Shown: positions 23,576 through 31,763, counted from the stretch's first letter. The stretch is DNA of 41,364 nt from a virus (IMGVR_UViG_2563366951_000005:1-41364); one strand, 5' to 3'. Notes: generated by a model from the sequence alone, not told the origin. Numbers and translations are program-made.

Positions 23576-24628
23576 TTATTCCCCTGCCAGCTGCCTTACC
23601 TCACTTACCGTCTGGTTGAAACGTTCCTCTTCCAGTTCTACGCCGATAGCCTGGCGGCCCAGTTCAATGGCTGCTTTAACAGTTGATCCCGAGCCCATAA
23701 AGAAATCAGCTACCACATCGCCGGGCCTGCTGCTGGCGTTGATGATTTGCCGCAACATATCAGCGGGCTTTTCGCACGGGTGTTTGCCTGGATAGAACTG
23801 GACGGGTTTATGTGTCCAGACGTCTGTATAGGGCACGGCTACTGTCACAGAGAAATGCCGCCGAAGAGATTTGTACTCTTCCAGCAGATCAAGGTATTTC
23901 CGGTTCAACGAATGCCATGTGGCCACCAGCTGGTGATGCGGTGCTTTGAGTTCAGAGGCGCGGTGCTTCTCAATGGCGATCTGAGTGAACAATTCCTGCA
24001 GCTTTTCGTAATCCTGCTCGTTTGGTAGTTGCCACTGACTGGTACCGAACCAGTGAGACGCCATATTTTTCTTTCCGGTGGCGTCAGCTATTTGCCTGGA
24101 CGTGACCCCCAGTTCGGCTCGTGCATCACGAAAGTAGGTGATTAACGGAGCCATGACGTGCTGTTTGACCTCGTTGCTTTTCTCAGCAAATCCGTCGCTT
24201 TTCGGATTATATGGCCCCTGATAATGCTCAGCGAAAAGGATGCGTTCCGTCGCGGGGAAGTAAGAGCGCAGGCTTTCTTTATTACAACCGTTCCAACGCC
24301 CTGATGGCTTCGCCCAGATAATGTGGTTCATAACGTTGAAGCGTTCACGCATCATGATCTCAATATCGGATGCAAGTCGGTGACCTGAAAACAAATACAG
24401 GCTGCCGGCAGGCTTAAGCACTCGCCAGAACTGGGCAAGACACATATCAAGCCATCGAAGATAGTCGGCGTCACCGTTCCACTGATTATCCCAGCCGTTC
24501 GGCTTCACCTTAAAATAAGGCGGATCCGTAACAATAAGGTCGATGGTGTTATCTGGGAGGGTAGCGAGGTATTGCAGGCAGTCAGCGTTGATAAGCTCAA
24601 CACTGTTTATATTTACAGTATTTTTCAT
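23576..24628 (-). CDS. DNA methyltransferase, beta-class N6-adenine/N4-cytosine type (DPPY then FMGSGST)
   Basis: 350 aa; motif IV LIVTDPPY near N-terminus and AdoMet motif FFMGSGST near C-terminus with an insertion of roughly 230 aa between them. Confidence 0.85.
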   Translation of the reverse strand: MKNTVNINSVELINADCLQYLATLPDNTIDLIVTDPPYFKVKPNGWDNQWNGDADYLRWLDMCLAQFWRVLKPAGSLYLFSGHRLASDIEIMMRERFNVMNHIIWAKPSGRWNGCNKESLRSYFPATERILFAEHYQGPYNPKSDGFAEKSNEVKQHVMAPLITYFRDARAELGVTSRQIADATGKKNMASHWFGTSQWQLPNEQDYEKLQELFTQIAIEKHRASELKAPHHQLVATWHSLNRKYLDLLEEYKSLRRHFSVTVAVPYTDVWTHKPVQFYPGKHPCEKPADMLRQIINASSRPGDVVADFFMGSGSTVKAAIELGRQAIGVELEEERFNQTVSEVRQLAGE

Positions 24629-25168: not shown

Positions 25169-25861
25169 TCACATTTCCGCCACTTTCAGTTCTTGGTACT
25201 CTTCGTACCGTGACAAAATTTCGCTTAGTGCCTGGCTATCCATTTCAGCAAACGACGCTTTGAAAGCCGCCCAGTGGCCTGAATACACTCTGAGCCAGGT
25301 GGAACGCTCAACGCTGACCATGCGCGCCAGAGCTGCACCAGCATACTCCTGATAGGTATCGTTATTACGCGAGGCAGCAACTTCTTGCGCCGCCAGCCAG
25401 ACAAGCCCTACCAGTTTTTTAGTGACGCGGCCCTGTATTTTTTTGCCGCTATGCTGACGCTGAAACTGTTCCCACACGTGCTGGCACATCAATGTCTGGT
25501 ACCGGAAAGTAAGGTCATACCCATAGCAGTACCGCACCCATGCCTGCAAATGCTCACCCAGACCATTGACCGAACGACGCCATGCTGAACAAGCGAACTC
25601 CGTATCTTTAATAGGCGGCAAAGGTCGACGACGGCTCCTTGTCTCAAGAACATAAAATGGAGTGGCCAGCGTTGTTACAACCTTTGACCCACAACCTTCC
25701 CCACCCTCCATGACGATTTCAGGATGGTGCCGGGGGTATTTATTCTTATCTGCTGGTGGATGCTCACTGAACGCCTGCAGCTGTCCTTTTGTCGATCCTG
25801 ATAAATCCGCCAGCGCGCGGCGCAGTTCAATCCGCGTATATTCCAGTTCTTGTAAATTCAT
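25169..25861 (-). CDS. Q: probable late antiterminator Q
   Basis: 230 aa from ATG at 25861; position immediately upstream of promoter/terminator and lysis module; family assignment from memory only. Confidence 0.6.
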   Translation of the reverse strand: MNLQELEYTRIELRRALADLSGSTKGQLQAFSEHPPADKNKYPRHHPEIVMEGGEGCGSKVVTTLATPFYVLETRSRRRPLPPIKDTEFACSAWRRSVNGLGEHLQAWVRYCYGYDLTFRYQTLMCQHVWEQFQRQHSGKKIQGRVTKKLVGLVWLAAQEVAASRNNDTYQEYAGAALARMVSVERSTWLRVYSGHWAAFKASFAEMDSQALSEILSRYEEYQELKVAEM

Positions 25862-25882
25862 TATGCTCAGCGCTCCATACAA

Positions 25883-26944
25883 TTACGCTTTTGTTATTAC
25901 GCCGATCGCCAGCGCTCGATTCATAAATCGGAATAGCAGCTCCAGCTGGGTACCGTGTTTTTTCTCGAACGCTGCAACATCAGCATGTAATTTGTCGTGA
26001 CACTCTCTGCACAGAGGGATCACGAACAAATCGTGGGCTTTAGTGGCGGTACCGCCCATGCCGTGACCAATGACATGGTGTGGATCATCCGCTGGCCGCC
26101 GGCAACCTTCACAGGGCTGGGTTTTAGCCCACCGGGTATAGTCCTCATTCACCCACCTGCGGTGTTTTGGGCGCAACATGAATGATTCAGGGGATTCAGG
26201 ATCCGCATGCAGAGCCAGAACCTGTGGCTGGTCATAGGCCACTTCCTGATTTGTTCCATGCTTTAAATGCGCAGCCGTGACCGCAGGGGTGACCTTCTTC
26301 TGCAAAATGTTTTTTGTCGGTGGCATCGGCACAATGTCACTTTCGCGATATACGGATAAAAACGGCTCATCCGGTAAGCGAAGCGCATGCTGGGCCATCC
26401 TTTCCGTGATTGCATCAGCAATGCCTGAGTAAACGGCCCACCAGCACAATTCACCGAGGGATAGTTCACGCTCGTTGTTGTAGCCAAGCGAAGACAGGAT
26501 AGAACTGATCAGCCAGTTAATGAGATTACGCCGGGCCAGTTCTGCCAGCGCCGCGGTGGTTTGCTCGCGCAGCTGGTTATCGCAATGCCAACAGAGCAAC
26601 ATTGATCCAGGGGGATGTCGCATCGTTACCAGCTCATGATGGTGATAATTAGTGTGCGGGTACTGGCATTCCTTCACGTTACGCTCTAGCCAGGATTCCA
26701 ACCCGGACAAACCGCCTGCTGCACGGATAACTCTCTCGTCGGTGAAGAATTCCTCGAGGGACTTATCTTCTGCCAGCGGCTGCCGGGCATCAGGGACGAG
26801 CCCCGACGGAAGCCCAGCCATGCTTTTTGGCTGAGGCTCCACCAGCACACGCCCCTGTTGAAACAAAGACATCAGTTCGCTACCCGGCTTTAACAGCACA
26901 AGCCCAAGGCGCGGAACAGTCTCGGCTGTAAACAGTCCTCTCAC
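25883..26944 (-). CDS. DUF968-like protein with C-terminal HNH-like Cys/His motif
   Basis: 353 aa; C-terminus CEGCRR...HHVIGHGMGG...CRECHDKLH; GTG start overlapping upstream stop. Confidence 0.65.
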   Translation of the reverse strand: MRGLFTAETVPRLGLVLLKPGSELMSLFQQGRVLVEPQPKSMAGLPSGLVPDARQPLAEDKSLEEFFTDERVIRAAGGLSGLESWLERNVKECQYPHTNYHHHELVTMRHPPGSMLLCWHCDNQLREQTTAALAELARRNLINWLISSILSSLGYNNERELSLGELCWWAVYSGIADAITERMAQHALRLPDEPFLSVYRESDIVPMPPTKNILQKKVTPAVTAAHLKHGTNQEVAYDQPQVLALHADPESPESFMLRPKHRRWVNEDYTRWAKTQPCEGCRRPADDPHHVIGHGMGGTATKAHDLFVIPLCRECHDKLHADVAAFEKKHGTQLELLFRFMNRALAIGVITKA

Positions 26945-27633
26945 GCGGCATGCCCCTTAGCGATGTGTGCCGTCCACAGGCCGCCGATCCACTCGATGCC
27001 TTTGGGTGTAAAACGTGCCTGGCTAAAGGCGTAGTTTGTTTCGCTCGTAGTGCCAGTTTTCACTTCAAACCGCCCGGCAGCAATGTGCTGGTGCCGAGGT
27101 GTCAGCACTCCACTGAGCCGGTACAAAATGCCGCTCTCAATGAGGAACAAGCGGAAATCGGTCTCTTTGGCCTGCAACAGCTTTGCCACCTGGCGGAAAG
27201 ACATTGAGCCTTTGGCAGTACAATATCGATCGACAAACTCAACTTTCGGCGCGGCAGCGGCTAACTGCTGGCTGAGTTGTTCTTTCTGCTCGGCCAGATC
27301 CGCGGCGAGACGTAATGCCTCCGGCAATGTTTGCGGGACACTTACGGCCTGGCTGTTCTCCAGCTCTTGCCAGCGATCGACAACAGCGGCGGTAAATTCT
27401 GGCGACAGCCTGGCGACGATCACCAGAGAATCACGTTTGTTAAACCAATACTCCTCGTAGGTTTGCCCGTTTTGCGGGTGTGTGTAGGGGGTGTGCGCCA
27501 ACGGCGCGGTTAAAATACCAGCAGATGCAAGGCGCTCAGCTGAGCGCTTCACATCACCATGTTTGCTCTGCACCAGCCTGGCAATTTCACGGCTGGACAT
27601 TGTCACAACACCCTTAGCGGTTAACTGATTCAT
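26941..27633 (-). CDS. antirepressor-like protein (Rha-type N-terminus, KilA-C/ANT-type C-terminus)
   Basis: 230 aa from ATG 27633 with RBS GGAGAAAT; domain call from sequence pattern recall. Confidence 0.6.
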   Translation of the reverse strand: MNQLTAKGVVTMSSREIARLVQSKHGDVKRSAERLASAGILTAPLAHTPYTHPQNGQTYEEYWFNKRDSLVIVARLSPEFTAAVVDRWQELENSQAVSVPQTLPEALRLAADLAEQKEQLSQQLAAAAPKVEFVDRYCTAKGSMSFRQVAKLLQAKETDFRLFLIESGILYRLSGVLTPRHQHIAAGRFEVKTGTTSETNYAFSQARFTPKGIEWIGGLWTAHIAKGHAA

Positions 27634-27647
27634 GCTATTTCTCCATA

Positions 27648-29585
27648 TCAGGCGGCTGCACCCGCCTTTTGATTTGCACATAATTCAGGAAGATTTGCTT
27701 CTACCAGCGCACGAGCGAACGGCGGCGGTACTGCGTTACCACAGCGCGCTACCTGCTTGTCTTTGGCGTAACGATTGCCGCGATAGTCCTGATCGATAAC
27801 GTAGCCGTCAGGGAAGCCCTGCGCCTTATAAAGCTCATGCGGTTGCAGCATGCGCATTCCGATATCGACGATCTGGTACTTAACCCCCTCGATCGTCACC
27901 AGCCATTCATCCTCGCTATCACCGCAGTAGGTTTCGAGGAATGTCCGGACCTCGCCAACGTGCTGGCCACCAGCGGTAATCGTCGGCATAGGTGTATCCA
28001 TGGTCTGACCGTCGCGGCAGGTTCCGCGCAGCTTCACCAGGTGCGACGCAACTACCGCGTGGTGATCAACAGTAGTGACTGAGTGGGCAGGCTCATCCAT
28101 ACCAACACCCGGCCCCGTGTAATTCCCACCATAGTGCTTCGCCAGGAACGCGCTCACCGTTGCAAACTTATTACCACCAGCAGTGACCGTGCCGAGCGGG
28201 TTATTCAGTTGAAGAACACGCGGTTCTTGCCCTGGGCGTTCGCCGTACCCCATCTGGATCAGTGTTGGAGTTACCAGCTGCGACTTACCGCCACCACCTG
28301 CAGTAATCGTCGCACTCGGTTCGTCAGCCCTGTGCCCAACACTGGCTCCAAACTGGCGGGCGATGACCGGCGCAACCACGCACGCGCGGGACTGCTTGAG
28401 GATTGTATGAGCGGGTTTATCCAGCGGGCGCGGCTTTGCCTGGTACTCACTGCCGCCATTGCCAGCCAGGAACGGTGTCAGGGCGGCCTCAACTACGCCA
28501 AGCGCATGCCCATTCCCGCCCGGGCGCGCCGACGTACCAGCGGTGACAGTTGGTACCGGCTCGGTCACTGGCTGCCCGGTGGCCCCGGTGCGGAATTTAG
28601 TAAGATGCGGTACCGCCAGTGCGTAGCCATGCTTTTTAGTGATGGTCTGCAATGGCTCTAACAACGATTGCCCGCGGAAACAGTCATAACCTCCTTTCGT
28701 CGTGGTGTGGTTACACTTCACGATGAAAGGTGATGCGCTTTCGATAACAAAGCGCTGGATGCCGCGCGCGATACGTTTGAGCGTATTTTCCGCCAGCGGC
28801 TTTTTGCGGTCGAAGATGGACCGGGCCGGGATATTCCAGTCAATGCACTCCGCCGCGGTACGCCATGGCGCCAGCTTGCCGCTTTGTACTTCCAGTGATT
28901 TTGGATCCCCATGAGTCGCTTCAGGCCAATGAATCTTGCGGCCGTCACAGCGCATGACCATGAAGAAACGCTTTCTGATCGTCGGCGCGCCGTAGTCACA
29001 TGCGCGCAGCTCCCGATAATCAACCTCATAACCAAGCCCGGCGATCAGCTGTTGCGCCTGCTGGCCGTGCGGCTCAATGGCAAGGAATTCACAAACCTCA
29101 GCCAGCGCAGGGTGATTCGCCGCGATCCCCGTCGACAGCATGCCGACAAATGCCTCGAATGTTTCGCCAGCACGCTCAGGATCCGGGCGTAATTCTTCAT
29201 CCAGCAGCGGGCCCCATGTCTTAAACTCTTCGACGTTCTCCAGCATCATGACGCGGGGACGTACTGCCAGCGCCCAGCGCAGGACAATCCACGCCAGCCC
29301 GCGAATCTCTTTCTTAACCGGCTTAGCGCCCTTCGCCTTGGAAAAGTGGCGGCAGTCAGGGCTAAACCAGGCCAGACCGACAGGTTTACCGCTGGTGGCT
29401 GCGCTTGGGTCAACGTCAAACACCGACTCGCAATAATGCAGCGTGTCAGGGTGATTCGTCTTATGCATCGCAATAGCGTTTTCGTCGTGGTTGATAGCGA
29501 TATCCACGCTACGCCCGATCGCCAGTTCAATGCCGGTACTCGCGCCGCCGCCACCAGCAAAGTTATCAACGATAATTTCACGCAT
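27648..29585 (-). CDS. DNA cytosine-5 methyltransferase with internally repeated variable region
   Basis: Motif I DNFAGGGGAS, motif IV-like FSPDCRHFS, ENV, C-terminal QxRxxGNAV; four repeats of P-x-T-[VI]-T-A-G-G modules in the middle. Confidence 0.85.
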   Translation of the reverse strand: MREIIVDNFAGGGGASTGIELAIGRSVDIAINHDENAIAMHKTNHPDTLHYCESVFDVDPSAATSGKPVGLAWFSPDCRHFSKAKGAKPVKKEIRGLAWIVLRWALAVRPRVMMLENVEEFKTWGPLLDEELRPDPERAGETFEAFVGMLSTGIAANHPALAEVCEFLAIEPHGQQAQQLIAGLGYEVDYRELRACDYGAPTIRKRFFMVMRCDGRKIHWPEATHGDPKSLEVQSGKLAPWRTAAECIDWNIPARSIFDRKKPLAENTLKRIARGIQRFVIESASPFIVKCNHTTTKGGYDCFRGQSLLEPLQTITKKHGYALAVPHLTKFRTGATGQPVTEPVPTVTAGTSARPGGNGHALGVVEAALTPFLAGNGGSEYQAKPRPLDKPAHTILKQSRACVVAPVIARQFGASVGHRADEPSATITAGGGGKSQLVTPTLIQMGYGERPGQEPRVLQLNNPLGTVTAGGNKFATVSAFLAKHYGGNYTGPGVGMDEPAHSVTTVDHHAVVASHLVKLRGTCRDGQTMDTPMPTITAGGQHVGEVRTFLETYCGDSEDEWLVTIEGVKYQIVDIGMRMLQPHELYKAQGFPDGYVIDQDYRGNRYAKDKQVARCGNAVPPPFARALVEANLPELCANQKAGAAA

Positions 29586-30912
29586 TGACGGCCCCCTGCA
29601 TGCTGTTGAAGAGACCACCAGCGGTCGTGATAATTTCACTCGTCGGCATACGTTCGAGCCACAGCTGGTTGATATTGGCTTTCAGCTTGTTCTGCTGCGA
29701 AACAGGTAGAGCGTCAGCCCCTTCAATCTGGTTAAACACCAGTCCAACCTCAAGAGGCCAAACGCGCGATTCGTTTAACGCCTTGTCCTTTGATTCCTGC
29801 GTCTCACGGACATGGGCGCGGATCCCCCGAATATTTGACCATTTGGCTTTATCCAGGCTTTCCATGGTCGCGATGAATTCACTGTGGTTAATGCCGTATT
29901 CTTTCGCAGACTCAACGGCAACCGTGCGTAACCGCTCTGACATGTCTTGTTTCACGTCATCGCTATCAAAGGGCAATGTTTCCAGCCATGCATTAACACC
30001 CACCAGGATGCTCTCGCTGATCAGCTTTTTCGCTCTGTCGATCGTCAGCGGTGAAACATTGGTAAATTCAGGGTTTTCCAGAGAGTCGGCAGCCCAGGTA
30101 TGACCAAACTTTGACTCGCTGAAGGTGTACTCGTCTTTCTCGCCGAACGCCGCGACAACACAGGCCCAAGCCTCTACACCGCTGGTTTCCAGAATGGCTT
30201 TTTGGGTTAATGGCAGTTCTGCCTCTGATTTCTTCGGCACTACCTCAGCGTCCAGCTCTGGCGCCGCATCAGTTTGCGTTCTTCCCACGGCAAATTGGGC
30301 CAGCGACATCGCAGCACGGCCTTTGGCCTCCAGGTCGGTGCGGTTGATGTAACTGAAACGCTCACCCCGCCATGTTTTGTCGAAGACCACGATAGCGCCA
30401 GCAAAAAATGCGCTGGTGGGCTGCTGCTTTTCGTCTTTCGGCACGAACCATGTAGGAAGATCGAAACCAATTCGGCCACGGATGAATGTGACGTGATCTG
30501 CCTCTTCCGGCCACCACGTTTCACTCGTCGCAGACTTAATGAGAAAAACGTACCGACCACCCTTTTCTCGCATGGCCATAGCGTGGTTAATGATGTGGGT
30601 CATTCCGGTAACGGCCTGCTTGTCGTGGTACTGAGAGCGGCTGTAAGGCGGGTTGCCAAACCCGGCACCACCGAGTTCTGCCAGCCGCTCTGACCAATCC
30701 TGCGTCAGGGCATTATCTTCAGCCGTGTACCATGCTGGGCACTTCGCGTTGCTGTCGTCGGCAAAAAGGTCCAACACCAGAGGGCCGAACATCGCATTGA
30801 TCCCCCAAAACAACAGATCCGGAGTGCGCCATTGATCACCGACCTCTTTCAACTCGTGTGCTGGTTTTGAACGGAGTTCAGCCAGTGCACGGCAGTATTT
30901 ATTTTCCATCAT
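29578..30912 (-). CDS. phage Dam-type N6-adenine DNA methyltransferase (NPPY) with ~260-aa C-terminal extension
   Basis: N-terminal ~180 aa with GFGNPPYS; ATGA overlap with upstream gene; C-terminal domain unassigned. Confidence 0.8.
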   Translation of the reverse strand: MMENKYCRALAELRSKPAHELKEVGDQWRTPDLLFWGINAMFGPLVLDLFADDSNAKCPAWYTAEDNALTQDWSERLAELGGAGFGNPPYSRSQYHDKQAVTGMTHIINHAMAMREKGGRYVFLIKSATSETWWPEEADHVTFIRGRIGFDLPTWFVPKDEKQQPTSAFFAGAIVVFDKTWRGERFSYINRTDLEAKGRAAMSLAQFAVGRTQTDAAPELDAEVVPKKSEAELPLTQKAILETSGVEAWACVVAAFGEKDEYTFSESKFGHTWAADSLENPEFTNVSPLTIDRAKKLISESILVGVNAWLETLPFDSDDVKQDMSERLRTVAVESAKEYGINHSEFIATMESLDKAKWSNIRGIRAHVRETQESKDKALNESRVWPLEVGLVFNQIEGADALPVSQQNKLKANINQLWLERMPTSEIITTAGGLFNSMQGAVNA

Positions 30913-31763
30913 CCTCTGAACCCCTCTGGAATCTTGCTATCAACCGGACCGAACTTCATCGGGTCATGTTTCTTTTCACCCCAGCTGTCACGCGGTGGCC
31001 GCCCCTTCTTGTCCCAGCGGATCCCGCTTTGCAGATAACCTTCAAATTTTTTCGGACCGAAGAGCGTTTCAGGACGCATGTACTGGTACTGCACGTCATT
31101 GCCGTTCCAGTGCTCATGCTTAAGGTCGATCACCAGCTGTAAGTCGCTAACGGTGTAACCTTCACGCAGACGAGCACGGATGTTTTCCAGAGAAGTTTTT
31201 GATTTTTGGTATCGTGAGCCACTAACCAGGTTCAGATGATTCAGAACCAGGATGGCGTTATCGGTGATCATCACTTCAGGGTCTGGTTGCGGCGCAACCG
31301 GACAAGAAGGTTTTTTAACTGATGGATCAGTAGTTGTATTTACTGACGGATCCCCCCCAGATTCTGACGGGTGAAAACCGCCTTTTTCATCGTTTTTTGA
31401 TGCCTCAGATTTTGACGCGTCTGTTTTTGAGGCATCAGATTTTGATGCGTCAGAATCTGACAGGTGAGAAAAGGCAGCAGCCTGCAATTTCGCAACATTG
31501 AGCTGGTAAACGTTCGATGCATTTCGGTTGCCTTTACGGCGCTGCTGGCGGGTTAACCAACCATCTTTTTCCAGCTGAGATATGGCTGTACGAACCGTGC
31601 TCTCACCAGCACCAATCTGGCGCGCGATGGTAGCGATGGAAGGCCAGCTAACCCCTTCATCACTGCTGAAGTCTGCCAGACGCGCCATGATGGCAACGCT
31701 GGATAACTTCATGCCTGACGAAGCGCATGCATCCCATACGTAACCGGTTAATTTAGTGCTCAT
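30909..31763 (-). CDS. replication initiation protein (N-terminal winged-helix domain, central SDASK repeats, conserved phage C-terminal domain)
   Basis: 284 aa; RBS AAGGA; architecture resembles lambdoid O-type initiators; contains DNA iteron-like repeats. Confidence 0.7.
   Translation of the reverse strand: MSTKLTGYVWDACASSGMKLSSVAIMARLADFSSDEGVSWPSIATIARQIGAGESTVRTAISQLEKDGWLTRQQRRKGNRNASNVYQLNVAKLQAAAFSHLSDSDASKSDASKTDASKSEASKNDEKGGFHPSESGGDPSVNTTTDPSVKKPSCPVAPQPDPEVMITDNAILVLNHLNLVSGSRYQKSKTSLENIRARLREGYTVSDLQLVIDLKHEHWNGNDVQYQYMRPETLFGPKKFEGYLQSGIRWDKKGRPPRDSWGEKKHDPMKFGPVDSKIPEGFRG
31339..31466. repeat. iteron-like direct repeats (consensus CAGAtTyTGAyGnGT) with T-tracts, candidate ori inside the initiator gene
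   Basis: Four to five copies at 31339, 31358, 31406, 31437 and 31451 read directly from sequence. Confidence 0.55.

What the first reader, a model, noticed from the sequence alone, without database searches (positions are those of the whole stretch)
27648..29585. C5-cytosine methyltransferase with four tandem repeats of a T-x-T-A-G-G module in its variable region
Between the conserved motifs the protein contains four related modules (PTVTAGTSARPGGNG, ATITAGGGGKSQ, GTVTAGGNKFAT, PTITAGGQHVGE), each followed by a short hydrophobic stretch. Repeated modules in the region that normally holds the target-recognition domain could mean multispecificity or an unusual DNA-binding mode. Motif IV is also atypical (SPDCRHFS rather than PCQ).
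Basis: seen in the sequence. Interest (0 to 1): 0.45.

Follow-up and report, generated by a model that had tools for sequence, protein, structure and literature searches.

The report
Prophage cytosine methylase with tandem recognition cassettes
This prophage gene encodes a DNA cytosine-5 methyltransferase whose DNA-reading region is seven tandem copies of a roughly 35-residue recognition cassette, and tested relatives shield DNA from many different restriction enzymes, so it is probably a one-enzyme, many-targets anti-restriction device from a family that is already partly known.

Summary
The minus-strand gene 27648-29585 (645 aa) is a C5-cytosine methyltransferase. Its variable region holds seven tandem cassettes, not four, each 32-48 aa: Gly-rich loop, (E)PxxT[IV]T, second loop, hydrophobic strand. 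Each passes a leave-one-out test (0-8 of 3000 shuffles). The SPDC motif IV is invariant in a very large phage/prophage family (2589 50%-identity clusters at E<=1e-30).

Relatives carry 1-12 cassettes drawn from about 24 recurrent types, giving 230 architectures in 268 proteins. Close relatives (85-97% identical) differ by clean gain or loss of one cassette. Cassettes are conserved almost as well as the catalytic core.

The family has been tested experimentally. Paracoccus aminophilus prophage enzymes (41% identical, eight cassettes) partially protect AGCT, GGCC, GCGC, CCGG, CCWGG, ACGT and CTCGAG sites, but not CGCG, CCATGG, GATC and others. Aeromonas phage ARM81mr_p29 (46% identical, five cassettes) is reported as having relaxed specificity.

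The best reading is a multispecific enzyme built like the Bacillus phage SPR/SPbeta methylases, here in an E. coli lambdoid prophage with two further methylases. That each cassette is an independent TRD is inferred, not shown: AlphaFold gave no confident fold for the array.

Verdict: new member of a known kind, moderate interest.

The parts
27648..29585 (-). Complete CDS of the C5-cytosine DNA methyltransferase (645 aa plus stop).
   Evidence: ORF list; Pfam PF00145 E=1.9e-20 and TIGR00675; identical RefSeq CDS WP_001515601.1.
28950..29585 (-). N-terminal catalytic part, residues 1-212, carrying motifs I to VIII.
   Evidence: AlphaFold pLDDT is mostly 76-98 across this part, apart from a low-confidence loop at residues 80-90. 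Foldseek top hits are 3g7u, DNMT1, MET1, HhaI and HaeIII at E about 1e-8 to 1e-6.
29544..29561 (-). Motif I, FAGGGG (residues 9-14), the AdoMet-binding loop.
   Evidence: Read from the sequence. F9 and G11-G14 are invariant in the 143-sequence alignment; G11, G13 and G14 are invariant and F9 and G12 at least 90% conserved in the 100-sequence alignment.
29340..29363 (-). Motif IV variant SPDCRHFS (residues 75-82) with the catalytic Cys78. Asp replaces the usual Pro before the Cys.
   Evidence: S75, P76 and C78 are invariant and D77 is invariant or at least 90% conserved. The same SPDCKHFS is present in ARM81mr_p29 and in the P. aminophilus enzymes.
29232..29240 (-). Motif VI, ENV (residues 116-118).
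   Evidence: Invariant in the family alignments.
28962..28982 (-). Motif VIII, TIRKRFF (residues 202-208).
   Evidence: R204 and R206 are invariant. This stretch aligns to PTIRTRYF of PDB 3g7u.
28725..28949 (-). Conserved N-terminal part of the variable region (residues 213-287). It probably forms the base of the small domain.
   Evidence: Many invariant or nearly invariant positions, including W220, P221, H225, D249, S256, I257, R271, G275 and P286. AlphaFold pLDDT about 60-89.
28608..28724 (-). Cassette 1, type E (residues 288-326): ...FRGQSLLEPLQTITKKHGYALAVP.
   Evidence: Module HMM i-E=1.1e-13; leave-one-out 0 of 3000; typed.
28512..28607 (-). Cassette 2, type G (residues 327-358): HLTKFRTGATGQPVTEPVPTVTAGTSARPGGN.
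   Evidence: HMM i-E=3.9e-09; leave-one-out 1 of 3000. Type G is also present in the tested Paracoccus enzymes.
28368..28511 (-). Cassette 3, type N (residues 359-406): ...LAGNGGSEYQAKPRPLDKPAHTILKQSRACVVAP.
   Evidence: HMM i-E=1.6e-11; leave-one-out 8 of 3000. The close relative P0026 lacks query residues 373-407, that is the loop, PxxTxT and strand of this cassette, as one in-frame 105-nt gap.
28272..28367 (-). Cassette 4, type F (residues 407-438): VIARQFGASVGHRADEPSATITAGGGGKSQLV.
   Evidence: HMM i-E=1.6e-13. Type F is shared with ARM81mr_p29.
28152..28271 (-). Cassette 5, type D (residues 439-478): TPTLIQMGYGERPGQEPRVLQLNNPLGTVTAGGNKFATVS.
   Evidence: HMM i-E=3.6e-16. Absent as an in-frame 117-nt gap in relatives P0037, P0060 and P0072. 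Type D is present in the Paracoccus enzymes and in phi105.
28044..28151 (-). Cassette 6, type C (residues 479-514): AFLAKHYGGNYTGPGVGMDEPAHSVTTVDHHAVVAS.
   Evidence: HMM i-E=2.9e-16. Relatives P0002, P0017, P0036 and P0043 carry an extra cassette inserted right after it.
27945..28043 (-). Cassette 7, type B (residues 515-547): HLVKLRGTCRDGQTMDTPMPTITAGGQHVGEVR.
   Evidence: HMM i-E=3.8e-13. Type B is the next-to-last cassette in 165 of 268 relatives.
27864..27944 (-). Remnant of the usual terminal type-A cassette (residues 548-574). Its PxxTxT head is missing in this clade.
   Evidence: Comparison with phi105, phiNP and ARM81mr_p29, which keep ...EPLHTVTTKDRFGLVTV. 224 of 268 relatives end in type A and 17 end in type B.
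27651..27863 (-). C-terminal catalytic part (residues 575-645) with motif IX (MRMLQPHELYKAQGFP) and motif X (GNAVPPP).
   Evidence: pLDDT about 88-94. Aligns to DNMT1 motifs IX and X. N617 is invariant.
29578..30912 (-). Upstream Dam-type N6-adenine methyltransferase gene. Its stop overlaps the C5 gene start by 8 nt (ATGCGTGA), with an AGGGGG Shine-Dalgarno sequence 8 nt upstream of the C5 ATG.
   Evidence: Pfam PF05869 E=1.9e-43; sequence read. The same Dam-then-C5 pair occurs in phage phiNP and in loci L012 and L013.

Best explanation
The gene encodes an orphan, phage-borne DNA cytosine-5 methyltransferase. It has a normal two-part catalytic domain with motifs I-VIII and IX-X. Cys78, in an SPDC variant of motif IV, would be the nucleophile.

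Between the two halves sits a conserved stretch of about 75 aa, followed by seven tandem cassettes of 32-48 aa. Each cassette has the anatomy of a minimal target-recognition domain: a short helix or strand tail (hLxKxxG), a Gly-rich loop that often carries a GQ, the (E)PxxT[IV]T element equivalent to the conserved 'TL' motif of C5-MTase TRDs, a second variable loop, and a hydrophobic strand.

The most likely mechanism (inferred) is as follows:
- One cassette at a time docks beside the catalytic cleft.
- It reads its own short target and positions the cytosine for flipping and methylation.
- A single polypeptide therefore methylates several unrelated 4-6 bp sequences.

The gene lies in the early-right (replication) operon of a lambdoid prophage and is translationally coupled to a Dam-type methylase. 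It would be made during lytic growth and would pre-protect progeny DNA against many type II restriction enzymes of future hosts.

Shown: the enzyme class, the repeat anatomy, the family-wide cassette shuffling, strong conservation of the cassettes, and broad but selective restriction protection by homologues.

Inferred: that each cassette is an independent TRD, which targets this particular enzyme methylates, and the timing of expression.
For: Enzyme class:
- PF00145 and TIGR00675 match.
- Motifs I, IV, VI, VIII, IX and X are present and invariant across the family.
- The confident catalytic fold matches C5-MTases.

Repeat:
- Seven modules, each significant by leave-one-out testing.
- The module HMM finds 1-12 copies (mode 8) in 268 diverse relatives.

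Modularity:
- Relatives 85-97% identical differ by in-frame loss or gain of one cassette.
- About 24 recurrent cassette types give 230 architectures in 268 proteins. Inner cassettes change order, while B-A stay at the end.

Functional constraint:
- Within-type cassette identity is 47-73%, against 62-77% for catalytic motifs I-VI in the same protein pairs. Identity between types is about 30%.
- A GQ dipeptide in the first loop occurs in 38% of cassettes, against 6% in shuffles.

Resemblance to known multi-TRD enzymes:
- The real SPR, rho11s, H2 and SPbeta sequences show the same core in each TRD (SPTITTNKGEG, SHTLSASDWRG, ATTLTSQSVGG, SPTLTTMGGGH). They also have a terminal EPAFTVNTIDRHGVA element that resembles cassette type C or A.

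Experiment on homologues:
- The P. aminophilus prophage m5C MTases have 'relaxed substrate specificity'. They give partial protection against AluI, BsuRI, Hin6I, HpaII, MspI, EcoRII, NciI, TaiI, XhoI and others.
- They give no protection against Bsh1236I (CGCG), MluI, NcoI, Eco130I, BspLI, Bsp143I and others (PMC3925955, text and Additional file 8).
- I identified these two proteins as P0461 and P0462. They are 41% identical to the query over its full length (E about 1e-161), carry SPDCKHFS, and have eight cassettes, including types G and D that the query shares.
- ARM81mr_p29 is 45.8% identical with five cassettes (L-F-C-B-A) and is cited as a relaxed-specificity m5C MTase located in a replication module (PMC5537653).

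Context:
- The surrounding region is a lambdoid prophage with two further MTases.
- The C5 start codon overlaps the Dam stop codon.
Against: - No structure supports cassette independence. AlphaFold gives pLDDT 25-50 for residues 291-571 even with 143 diverse sequences.
- Cassette similarity to the TRDs of the Bacillus enzymes, HhaI and HaeIII is limited to the short core and is not statistically significant (HMM i-E 0.07-5, blastp-short E>=0.03).
- Protection by the Paracoccus enzymes was only partial at every protected site. [quoted passage not shown]
- Cassette order is largely conserved: E, Q, P or I first and B-A last. That would also suit a structural repeat with position-specific blades.
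- One homologue, Phi2LM21_p23, was inactive in E. coli.
- Nothing was measured for this protein itself.
Confidence: 0.62

Rival explanations
1. Single composite recognition domain with low discrimination. The seven cassettes fold together into one extended, repeat-built DNA-binding domain. The enzyme then methylates cytosines in many contexts with graded preferences ('relaxed specificity'), not through independent TRDs.
For: - The authors of the experimental work describe the homologues as having relaxed specificity, with only partial protection at all protected sites.
- Cassette order is largely conserved, with B-A always last.
- The same prophage probably also carries a non-specific adenine methylase. 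Context-independent methylation is therefore a known phage strategy.
Against: - No dinucleotide or trinucleotide rule explains the protection pattern. ACGT is protected but ACGCGT is not. GCGC is protected but CGCG is not. CCWGG and CCGG are protected but CCATGG and CCWWGG are not.
- Single cassettes come and go in near-identical proteins, and inner cassettes change order.
- Each cassette type keeps its own highly conserved loops across phyla.
- AlphaFold does not find a repeat fold, although it usually predicts solenoid-type repeats confidently.
Confidence: 0.22
2. Mostly relics. Only one or two cassettes (for example those nearest motif IX) act as the TRD. The others are pseudo-domains or spacers left by duplication, comparable to the 'pseudo' TRDs recalled from memory for Bacillus phage methylases.
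For: - Types B and A are nearly universal and terminal, as expected for a constant functional element.
- phi105 manages with three cassettes.
- Three of the seven modules in this protein have degenerate cores: TITKK, TILKQ and SVTTV.
Against: - Inner cassettes are conserved almost as strongly as the catalytic motifs across very distant hosts.
- About 24 types recur in hundreds of proteins.
- The tested eight-cassette enzymes protect at least seven unrelated site families.
- This clade has lost the head of the 'constant' type-A cassette yet is abundant. The 99%-identity cluster has 1680 member sequences.
Confidence: 0.1
3. Not a DNA m5C methylase in practice. It would be an inactive prophage relic, or an enzyme with another substrate or cofactor, because motif IV has Asp instead of Pro before the Cys and motif II has Asn-His instead of Glu.
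For: - SPDC and NHD deviate from the textbook motifs.
- Foldseek also lists a C5-carboxymethyltransferase (8yf3) among its hits.
- One homologue was inactive in E. coli.
Against: - The same SPDC motif is present in the Paracoccus enzymes, which block m5C-sensitive restriction enzymes, and in ARM81mr_p29.
- All other catalytic residues are invariant across thousands of relatives.
- The gene is intact and identical or nearly identical in 13 E. coli genomes and three phages.
Confidence: 0.05

Closest known systems
Prophage m5C methyltransferases JCM7686_0772 and JCM7686_2655 of Paracoccus aminophilus (Dziewit et al. 2014, PMC3925955), and Pyei1_p05 of Paracoccus phage vB_PyeM_Pyei1
   Same: - Full-length homologues: 41-43% identity, E about 1e-161 to 1e-167.
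- Same SPDC(K/R)HFS motif IV.
- Same layout of a conserved variable-region head followed by a tandem cassette array.
- Cassette types G and D are shared.
- Encoded by temperate phages.
   Different: - Eight cassettes (I-?-G-?-X-D-O-A) against seven here (E-G-N-F-D-C-B), so the target set probably differs.
- Alphaproteobacterial host.
- Activity was measured for those enzymes, not for this one.
- The identification of P0461 and P0462 with the two locus tags is by inference: they are the only two P. aminophilus hits, 68-69% identical to Pyei1_p05, as the paper states.
ARM81mr_p29 of Aeromonas phage phiARM81mr (Dziewit & Radlinska 2016, cited in PMC5537653)
   Same: - 45.8% identity over 100% of the query.
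- SPDCKHFS motif.
- Cassette types F, C and B are shared.
- Located in the replication module of a lambdoid-type temperate phage.
- Reported as an m5C MTase with relaxed specificity.
   Different: - Five cassettes (L-F-C-B-A), and it keeps the complete terminal type-A cassette.
- It sits upstream rather than downstream of the O-like replication gene.
- I could not read the primary paper.
Multispecific C5-methyltransferases of Bacillus phages (M.SPRI, M.Phi3TI, M.Rho11sI, M.H2I, M.SPBetaI)
   Same: - One catalytic core plus a variable region with a conserved head and a whole number of tandem units of roughly 40 aa. Each unit has a P/S-x-T-[ILV]-[TS] core followed by a Gly-containing loop.
- A terminal EPxxTVxT-D-R/H-hydrophobic element lies just before motif IX.
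- Encoded by temperate phages and used for self-protection against several restriction systems. The TRD sizes are from my memory of Trautner et al. 1996.
   Different: - A different subfamily of C5-MTases: canonical PCQ motif IV against SPDC here.
- Cassette-to-TRD similarity is not significant beyond the core.
- Three to four TRDs in the Bacillus enzymes, against 7 here and up to 12 in relatives.
- The one-TRD-one-target rule was proven by deletion and chimera work for the Bacillus enzymes only.
Monospecific C5-methyltransferases M.HhaI and M.HaeIII
   Same: - Same catalytic fold and motif order.
- The single TRD element ...GIAITLSAYGGG... (HhaI) or NEPAFTVQASGRQ (HaeIII) is the counterpart of one cassette core.
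   Different: - They have one such element. This protein has seven.
- Their variable region is about 80-90 aa, against about 365 aa here.

Membership tests
DNA (cytosine-5) methyltransferases (Pfam PF00145) | Profile match above the curated threshold. | tested here: met
   PF00145 scores 74 bits against a cut-off of 22, E=1.9e-20. TIGR00675 scores 53 bits, below its cut-off of 100.65, because only the ends of the protein match.
DNA (cytosine-5) methyltransferases (Pfam PF00145) | Motif I FxGxG, motif VI ENV, motif VIII RxR and motif X GN(A/S)V, in the canonical order. | tested here: met
   FAGGGG (9-14), ENV (116-118), RKR (204-206) and GNAVPPP (616-622), with the key residues invariant in relatives.
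DNA (cytosine-5) methyltransferases (Pfam PF00145) | Motif IV Pro-Cys with the catalytic cysteine. | tested here: inconclusive
   Cys78 is present and invariant, but the preceding residue is Asp (SPDC) rather than Pro. The same variant is carried by homologues shown to block m5C-sensitive enzymes.
DNA (cytosine-5) methyltransferases (Pfam PF00145) | Class I methyltransferase fold of the large domain. | tested here: met
   The AlphaFold catalytic domain has pLDDT mostly 76-98, apart from a low-confidence loop at residues 80-90. Foldseek hits 3g7u, DNMT1, MET1, HhaI and HaeIII with probability 1.00.
DNA (cytosine-5) methyltransferases (Pfam PF00145) | AdoMet-dependent formation of 5-methylcytosine in DNA. 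| not testable with these tools
   Needs expression followed by bisulfite, EM-seq or LC-MS analysis.
Relaxed-specificity prophage m5C MTases (JCM7686_0772/_2655, ARM81mr_p29 group) | Full-length sequence homology to the tested members. | tested here: met
   41% identity to P0461 and P0462 (E about 1e-161), 42.6% to Pyei1_p05, and 45.8% to ARM81mr_p29, each over about the whole length.
Relaxed-specificity prophage m5C MTases (JCM7686_0772/_2655, ARM81mr_p29 group) | Large size (about 560-700 aa) caused by a long variable region made of PxxTxT cassettes, together with the SPDC motif IV. | tested here: met
   Five to eight cassettes and SPDCKHFS in all of them. The query has seven.
Relaxed-specificity prophage m5C MTases (JCM7686_0772/_2655, ARM81mr_p29 group) | Orphan gene (no partner restriction endonuclease) in a temperate phage, often in the replication module. 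| tested here: met
   It lies between the O-like replication gene plus Dam and the Ant, DUF968 and Q genes. No nuclease partner is annotated nearby.
Relaxed-specificity prophage m5C MTases (JCM7686_0772/_2655, ARM81mr_p29 group) | Protection of DNA from many different m5C-sensitive restriction enzymes. | not testable with these tools
   Known only for the homologues.
Multispecific C5-MTases of Bacillus phages (SPR/SPbeta group) | Variable region made of a conserved head plus a whole number of tandem, non-overlapping units of about 40 aa. | tested here: met
   The head is residues 213-287 and is followed by seven cassettes of 32-48 aa. Unit-wise indels are seen in relatives.
Multispecific C5-MTases of Bacillus phages (SPR/SPbeta group) | Sequence relationship of the units to the known TRDs, and of the core to the SPR/SPbeta subfamily. 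| tested here: not met
   Only the short PxxT[ILV][TS] core is shared (i-E 0.07-5, E>=0.03). Motif IV is SPDC rather than SPCQ. It is therefore not a member of this subfamily, although it may work in the same way.
Multispecific C5-MTases of Bacillus phages (SPR/SPbeta group) | Each unit confers one target specificity independently of the others. | not testable with these tools
   Needs methylome mapping of deletion or swap variants. The homologue data (at least seven unrelated site families for eight cassettes) are consistent with this but not decisive.

The most novel reading that the evidence does not exclude
The cassettes form a combinatorial library of mini-TRDs, with at least 24 recurrent types and hundreds of rare ones. 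Phages across Proteobacteria, Firmicutes, Actinobacteria and haloarchaea would string them together, up to 12 per enzyme, to build made-to-measure multispecific cytosine methylases. These would be far larger arrays than the 3-5 TRDs known from Bacillus phages. If each type maps to one DNA motif, the family would give a readable cassette-to-motif code and a toolkit for engineering methylases with chosen sets of targets.
Probability: 0.45. Interest if true: 0.6.

Novelty: new member of a known kind. Interest (0 to 1): 0.45.

Why it matters
Phage self-methylation by one enzyme carrying many target-recognition domains is a textbook case, but it is known only from Bacillus phages. A 2025 review still cites only those, plus the non-specific M.EcoGII and Mom for E. 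coli phages.

This gene belongs to a much larger and taxonomically wider family. Its tested members protect DNA against many restriction enzymes. The modular basis of that breadth, tandem and shuffled cassettes, is not mentioned in the papers I could read.

If each cassette reads one motif, three things follow:
- The family would explain the 'relaxed specificity' phenotype.
- It would predict phage resistance to restriction from sequence alone.
- It would offer parts for designing methylases.

For genome annotation, it means these 'DNA cytosine methyltransferase' calls should not be assumed to have a single recognition site.

Tried and rejected
- **AlphaFold, 12 close relatives:** failed outright, with mean pLDDT 34.6.
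- **AlphaFold, 143 diverse relatives:** gave a good catalytic domain but no confident fold for residues 291-571.
- **Foldseek against the PDB:** it only re-found the catalytic fold.
Homology of cassettes to known TRDs is not demonstrated.
- **First typing of modules by a 31-column HMM window:** it split the units at the wrong place, because conserved tails belonged to the next unit. I redefined the cassettes from strand to strand.
- **Single-linkage clustering:** it chained 1797 of 1931 cassettes into one component, so I replaced it with Louvain communities.
- **Recent duplication or homologous recombination as the source of copy-number change:** DNA repeats are only 18-19 nt. Deletion junctions in P0037 and P0026 show 3-4 nt of microhomology in genes that are only 80-86% identical. 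Recent unequal crossing-over is not supported.
- **Literature:** searches for 'multispecific' found nothing on this family. The link came indirectly, through phage ZF40 and then the Serratia, Sinorhizobium and Paracoccus papers. Trautner 1996, Sethmann 1999 and Dziewit & Radlinska 2016 are not held.
- **Simple context rules (GC, CC or SC dinucleotides) for the Paracoccus protection table:** considered and rejected, because they fail on CGCG, ACGCGT and CCATGG.
Full report
**What is there.**
The finding sits on a minus-strand ORF. The longest form runs 27648-29639 from a GTG. All relatives start at the ATG at 29585 (MREIIVDNFAGGGG), and RefSeq annotates exactly 27648-29585 as WP_001515601.1, 'DNA cytosine methyltransferase'.

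The 645-aa protein matches Pfam PF00145 (E=1.9e-20), but only at its two ends. Reading the sequence gives these motifs:
- Motif I: FAGGGG (residues 9-14).
- Motif IV: SPDCRHFS (75-82).
- Motif VI: ENV (116-118).
- Motif VIII: TIRKRFF (202-208).
- Motif IX: MRMLQPHELYKAQGFP (577-592).
- Motif X: GNAVPPP (616-622).

About 365 residues lie between motifs VIII and IX. That is four times the usual length of a C5-methyltransferase variable region, and Pfam finds nothing there.

**Checking the observation.**
Three more copies lie in register with them, with degenerate cores: PLQTITKK at 311, PAHTILKQ at 391 and PAHSVTTV at 499.

The seven modules are spaced 32-48 residues apart. For each one I built an HMM from the other six and scored it against 3000 composition-matched shuffles. 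The observed score was reached by 0, 1, 8, 1, 0, 0 and 0 shuffles.

So the repeat is real, but there are seven modules rather than four. At the DNA level only the 18-19 nt that encode the T-I/V-T-A-G-G bits repeat, so the duplication is ancient.

**The family.**
- The gene is 98.5-100% identical in 13 of 5426 complete E. coli genomes, always chromosomal, and in phages Phi06_2987, Flotzy and Eeyore.
- An exhaustive HMMER search found 2589 50%-identity clusters at E<=1e-30, with lengths of about 470-1100 aa.
- tblastn finds the family in 349 phage records. Hosts include Klebsiella, Citrobacter, Pectobacterium, Aeromonas, Vibrio, Pseudomonas, Burkholderia, Ralstonia, Rhizobium, Bacillus (phi105), Mycobacterium, Gordonia and Halobacterium.
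- In alignments of 100 and 143 relatives, S75, P76, C78, E116-N117-V118, R204, R206 and N617 are invariant, and D77 is invariant or at least 90% conserved. SPDC is therefore a family signature, not a lesion.

**The repeat is a cassette array.**
Twelve relatives that are 85-97% identical differ by clean, in-frame presence or absence of one unit:
- P0026 lacks residues 373-407.
- P0037, P0060 and P0072 lack residues 438-476.
- P0002, P0017, P0036 and P0043 carry an extra unit after residue 513.

A module HMM (consensus QPLDEPLPTVTAGNHHALVAAFLAKYYGGER) finds 1-12 copies, mode 8, in 268 diverse relatives.

The conserved 'tail' of each HMM unit turned out to go with the next PxxTxT. I therefore redefined the unit from strand to strand:
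- a tail of the form hLxKxxG;
- a Gly-rich loop;
- (E)PxxT[IV]T;
- a second loop;
- an ALV strand.

The median length is 35 aa. Community clustering of 1931 cassettes gave about 24 recurrent types and many rare ones, and 230 different architectures among 268 proteins.

The query reads E-G-N-F-D-C-B, followed by a remnant of the usual terminal type A. Types B-A are almost always last and E, Q, P or I first. Inner types change order, for example EHDCFBA, EGNHFCDBA and EHKDGCFBA.

Within a type, identity is 47-73%, against 62-77% for catalytic motifs I-VI in the same protein pairs and about 30% between types. The cassettes are therefore under strong constraint and are not a linker. A GQ dipeptide in the first loop occurs in 38% of cassettes, against 6% of shuffles.

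**Structure.**
AlphaFold with a shallow alignment failed. With 143 diverse sequences it predicted the catalytic domain with confidence: pLDDT is mostly 76-98 for residues 1-250 (apart from a loop at 80-90) and about 88-94 for 575-635. The whole array, residues 291-571, scored only 25-50.

Foldseek placed the confident part among C5-methyltransferases: 3g7u from E. coli prophage CP-933R, DNMT1, MET1, HhaI and HaeIII. The spatial arrangement of the cassettes therefore remains unknown. This is the main gap in the argument.

**Comparison with known multi-TRD enzymes.**
I retrieved the real sequences of M.SPRI, M.Rho11sI, M.H2I and M.SPBetaI.

Their variable regions hold the same short core in each TRD: SPTITTNKGEG, SHTLSASDWRG, ATTLTSQSVGG and SPTLTTMGGGH. 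They also have a constant EPAFTVNTIDRHGVA just before motif IX, which resembles cassette types C and A here. Beyond that core the similarity is not significant (i-E 0.07-5, E>=0.03).

From memory (Trautner et al. 1996, EMBO J 15:1434, not held by the library), those enzymes have a conserved head of about 71 aa followed by a whole number of 38-41 aa TRDs. The layout here is the same in kind. The protein nevertheless belongs to a different subfamily.

**Experimental literature on this family.**
- Dziewit et al. 2014 expressed the two prophage m5C methylases of Paracoccus aminophilus in E. coli and reported 'relaxed substrate specificity' (PMC3925955).
- Their Additional file 8 lists partial protection against AluI (AGCT), PvuII, BsuRI (GGCC), EcoO109I, BglI, Hin6I (GCGC), PauI, HpaII and MspI (CCGG), NciI, Bme1390I, EcoRII (CCWGG), TaiI (ACGT), XhoI, HpyF10VI and CaiI.
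- It lists complete cleavage by Bsh1236I (CGCG), Bsp68I, Bsp143I (GATC), BspLI (GGNNCC), Eco130I (CCWWGG), FspBI, Hin1II, HinfI, MbiI, MluI (ACGCGT), NcoI and PamDI.
- PMC5537653 states that ARM81mr_p29 and ARM81ld_p31 are m5C MTases with relaxed specificity. It adds that such phage proteins of about 700 aa are widespread and often sit in replication modules.
- PMC6536676 links Pyei1_p05 to the Paracoccus enzymes at about 69% identity.

I verified the relationships directly:
- ARM81mr_p29 (L007:2447-4144, 565 aa) is 45.8% identical to the query over its full length and reads L-F-C-B-A.
- Pyei1_p05 is 42.6% identical, E=2.8e-167.
- The only two P. aminophilus proteins among its relatives, P0461 (703 aa) and P0462 (685 aa), are 41% identical to the query. 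They carry SPDCKHFS and have eight cassettes, I-?-G-?-X-D-O-A.

**Interpretation.**
No single short context rule fits the protection table. ACGT is protected but ACGCGT is not, GCGC but not CGCG, and CCGG and CCWGG but not CCATGG or CCWWGG.

A set of at least seven discrete targets (AGCT, GGCC, GCGC, CCGG, CCWGG, ACGT, CTCGAG) explains the table, and those enzymes have eight cassettes. Add the unit-wise gain and loss, the shuffling, the type-specific conservation of both loops, and the anatomical match to a minimal TRD. The best-supported mechanism is then a multispecific enzyme in which each cassette serves as a TRD in turn.

This step is inferred. The partial protection and the conserved cassette order leave room for a single composite, low-discrimination domain, or for some cassettes being relics.

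**Context.**
The window is a lambdoid prophage integrated next to yejO and narP. The gene order on the minus strand is:
- O-like replication protein (30909-31763);
- Dam-type methylase (29578-30912);
- this gene;
- Ant/Rha (26941-27633 as annotated);
- DUF968 (25883-26944);
- Q (25169-25882);
- N6_N4 methylase (23576-24628);
- lysis genes.

The C5 start overlaps the Dam stop by 8 nt, with an AGGGGG Shine-Dalgarno 8 nt upstream. The Dam-then-C5 pair recurs in phage phiNP and in metagenomic relatives. Expression during lytic growth, for protection of progeny DNA, is the expected role but was not tested.

**Verdict.**
The multispecificity idea is the leading explanation and agrees with published assays on homologues. 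The protein is a new member of a family already known experimentally as relaxed-specificity prophage m5C methylases.

What appears not to have been spelled out in the literature I could search is the cassette architecture and its combinatorial diversity. Interest is moderate.

Noticed in passing
window 23576-24628 (-): A third DNA methyltransferase in the same prophage. It is 350 aa, matches Pfam PF01555 (N6_N4_Mtase), and sits just upstream of the lysis genes. It is 77-78% identical to homologues in Stx2-converting phages. Its size, family and position match M.EcoGI/M.EcoGII (349 aa) and the non-specific adenine methylases PhiOS31_p25 and ARM81ld_p56 described in the literature. I did not align it to those proteins.
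   Followed up: partly
window 29578-30912 (-): The upstream Dam-type methylase is 444 aa, but the Dam domain (PF05869) covers only residues 19-199. The C-terminal 240 or so residues have no Pfam match. One PHROG (33262) labels the matching region 'phosphoadenosine phosphosulfate reductase', and phage records Flotzy and Eeyore copy that label. It looks like a mis-annotation. Relatives in L012 and L013 have a 299-aa version.
   Followed up: partly
window 29578-29585: The C5 methylase start codon overlaps the Dam stop codon by 8 nt (ATGCGTGA), with an AGGGGG Shine-Dalgarno 8 nt upstream. This suggests translational coupling of the two methylases.
   Followed up: yes
window 28001-29000: GC content peaks at 0.593 over the cassette array, against about 0.50-0.55 nearby, reflecting Gly, Ala and Pro codons. 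Several long antisense and overlapping ORFs (for example 28083-28661 +, 192 aa) lie here and are probably by-products of composition, not genes.
   Followed up: no
window 27864-27944 (-), residues 548-574: This enterobacterial clade has lost the PxxTxT head of the otherwise near-universal terminal type-A cassette and keeps only ...EDEWLVTIEGVKYQIVD. 224 of 268 relatives end in type A and 17 end in type B. Some close relatives (P0017, P0036, P0048) instead carry a 17-aa helical insert (TLAVEHYDEQRAQQVLAFL) at this spot.
   Followed up: partly
L001:2977-4353 (Bacillus phage phi105, KY197768): phi105 encodes an unannotated 458-aa member of this family with only three cassettes (D-B-A), about 50% identical to the E. 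coli protein. From memory, phi105 served as a restriction-sensitive test phage for BsuR (GGCC). If so, this enzyme would be silent or would not cover GGCC.
   Followed up: no
window 25883-26944 (-) and 26941-27681 (-): A DUF968 protein with a putative HNH nuclease region (353 aa) and a Rha/KilAC antirepressor follow the methylase in the same operon. The same neighbours recur next to the methylase in the metagenomic relative L012.
   Followed up: no
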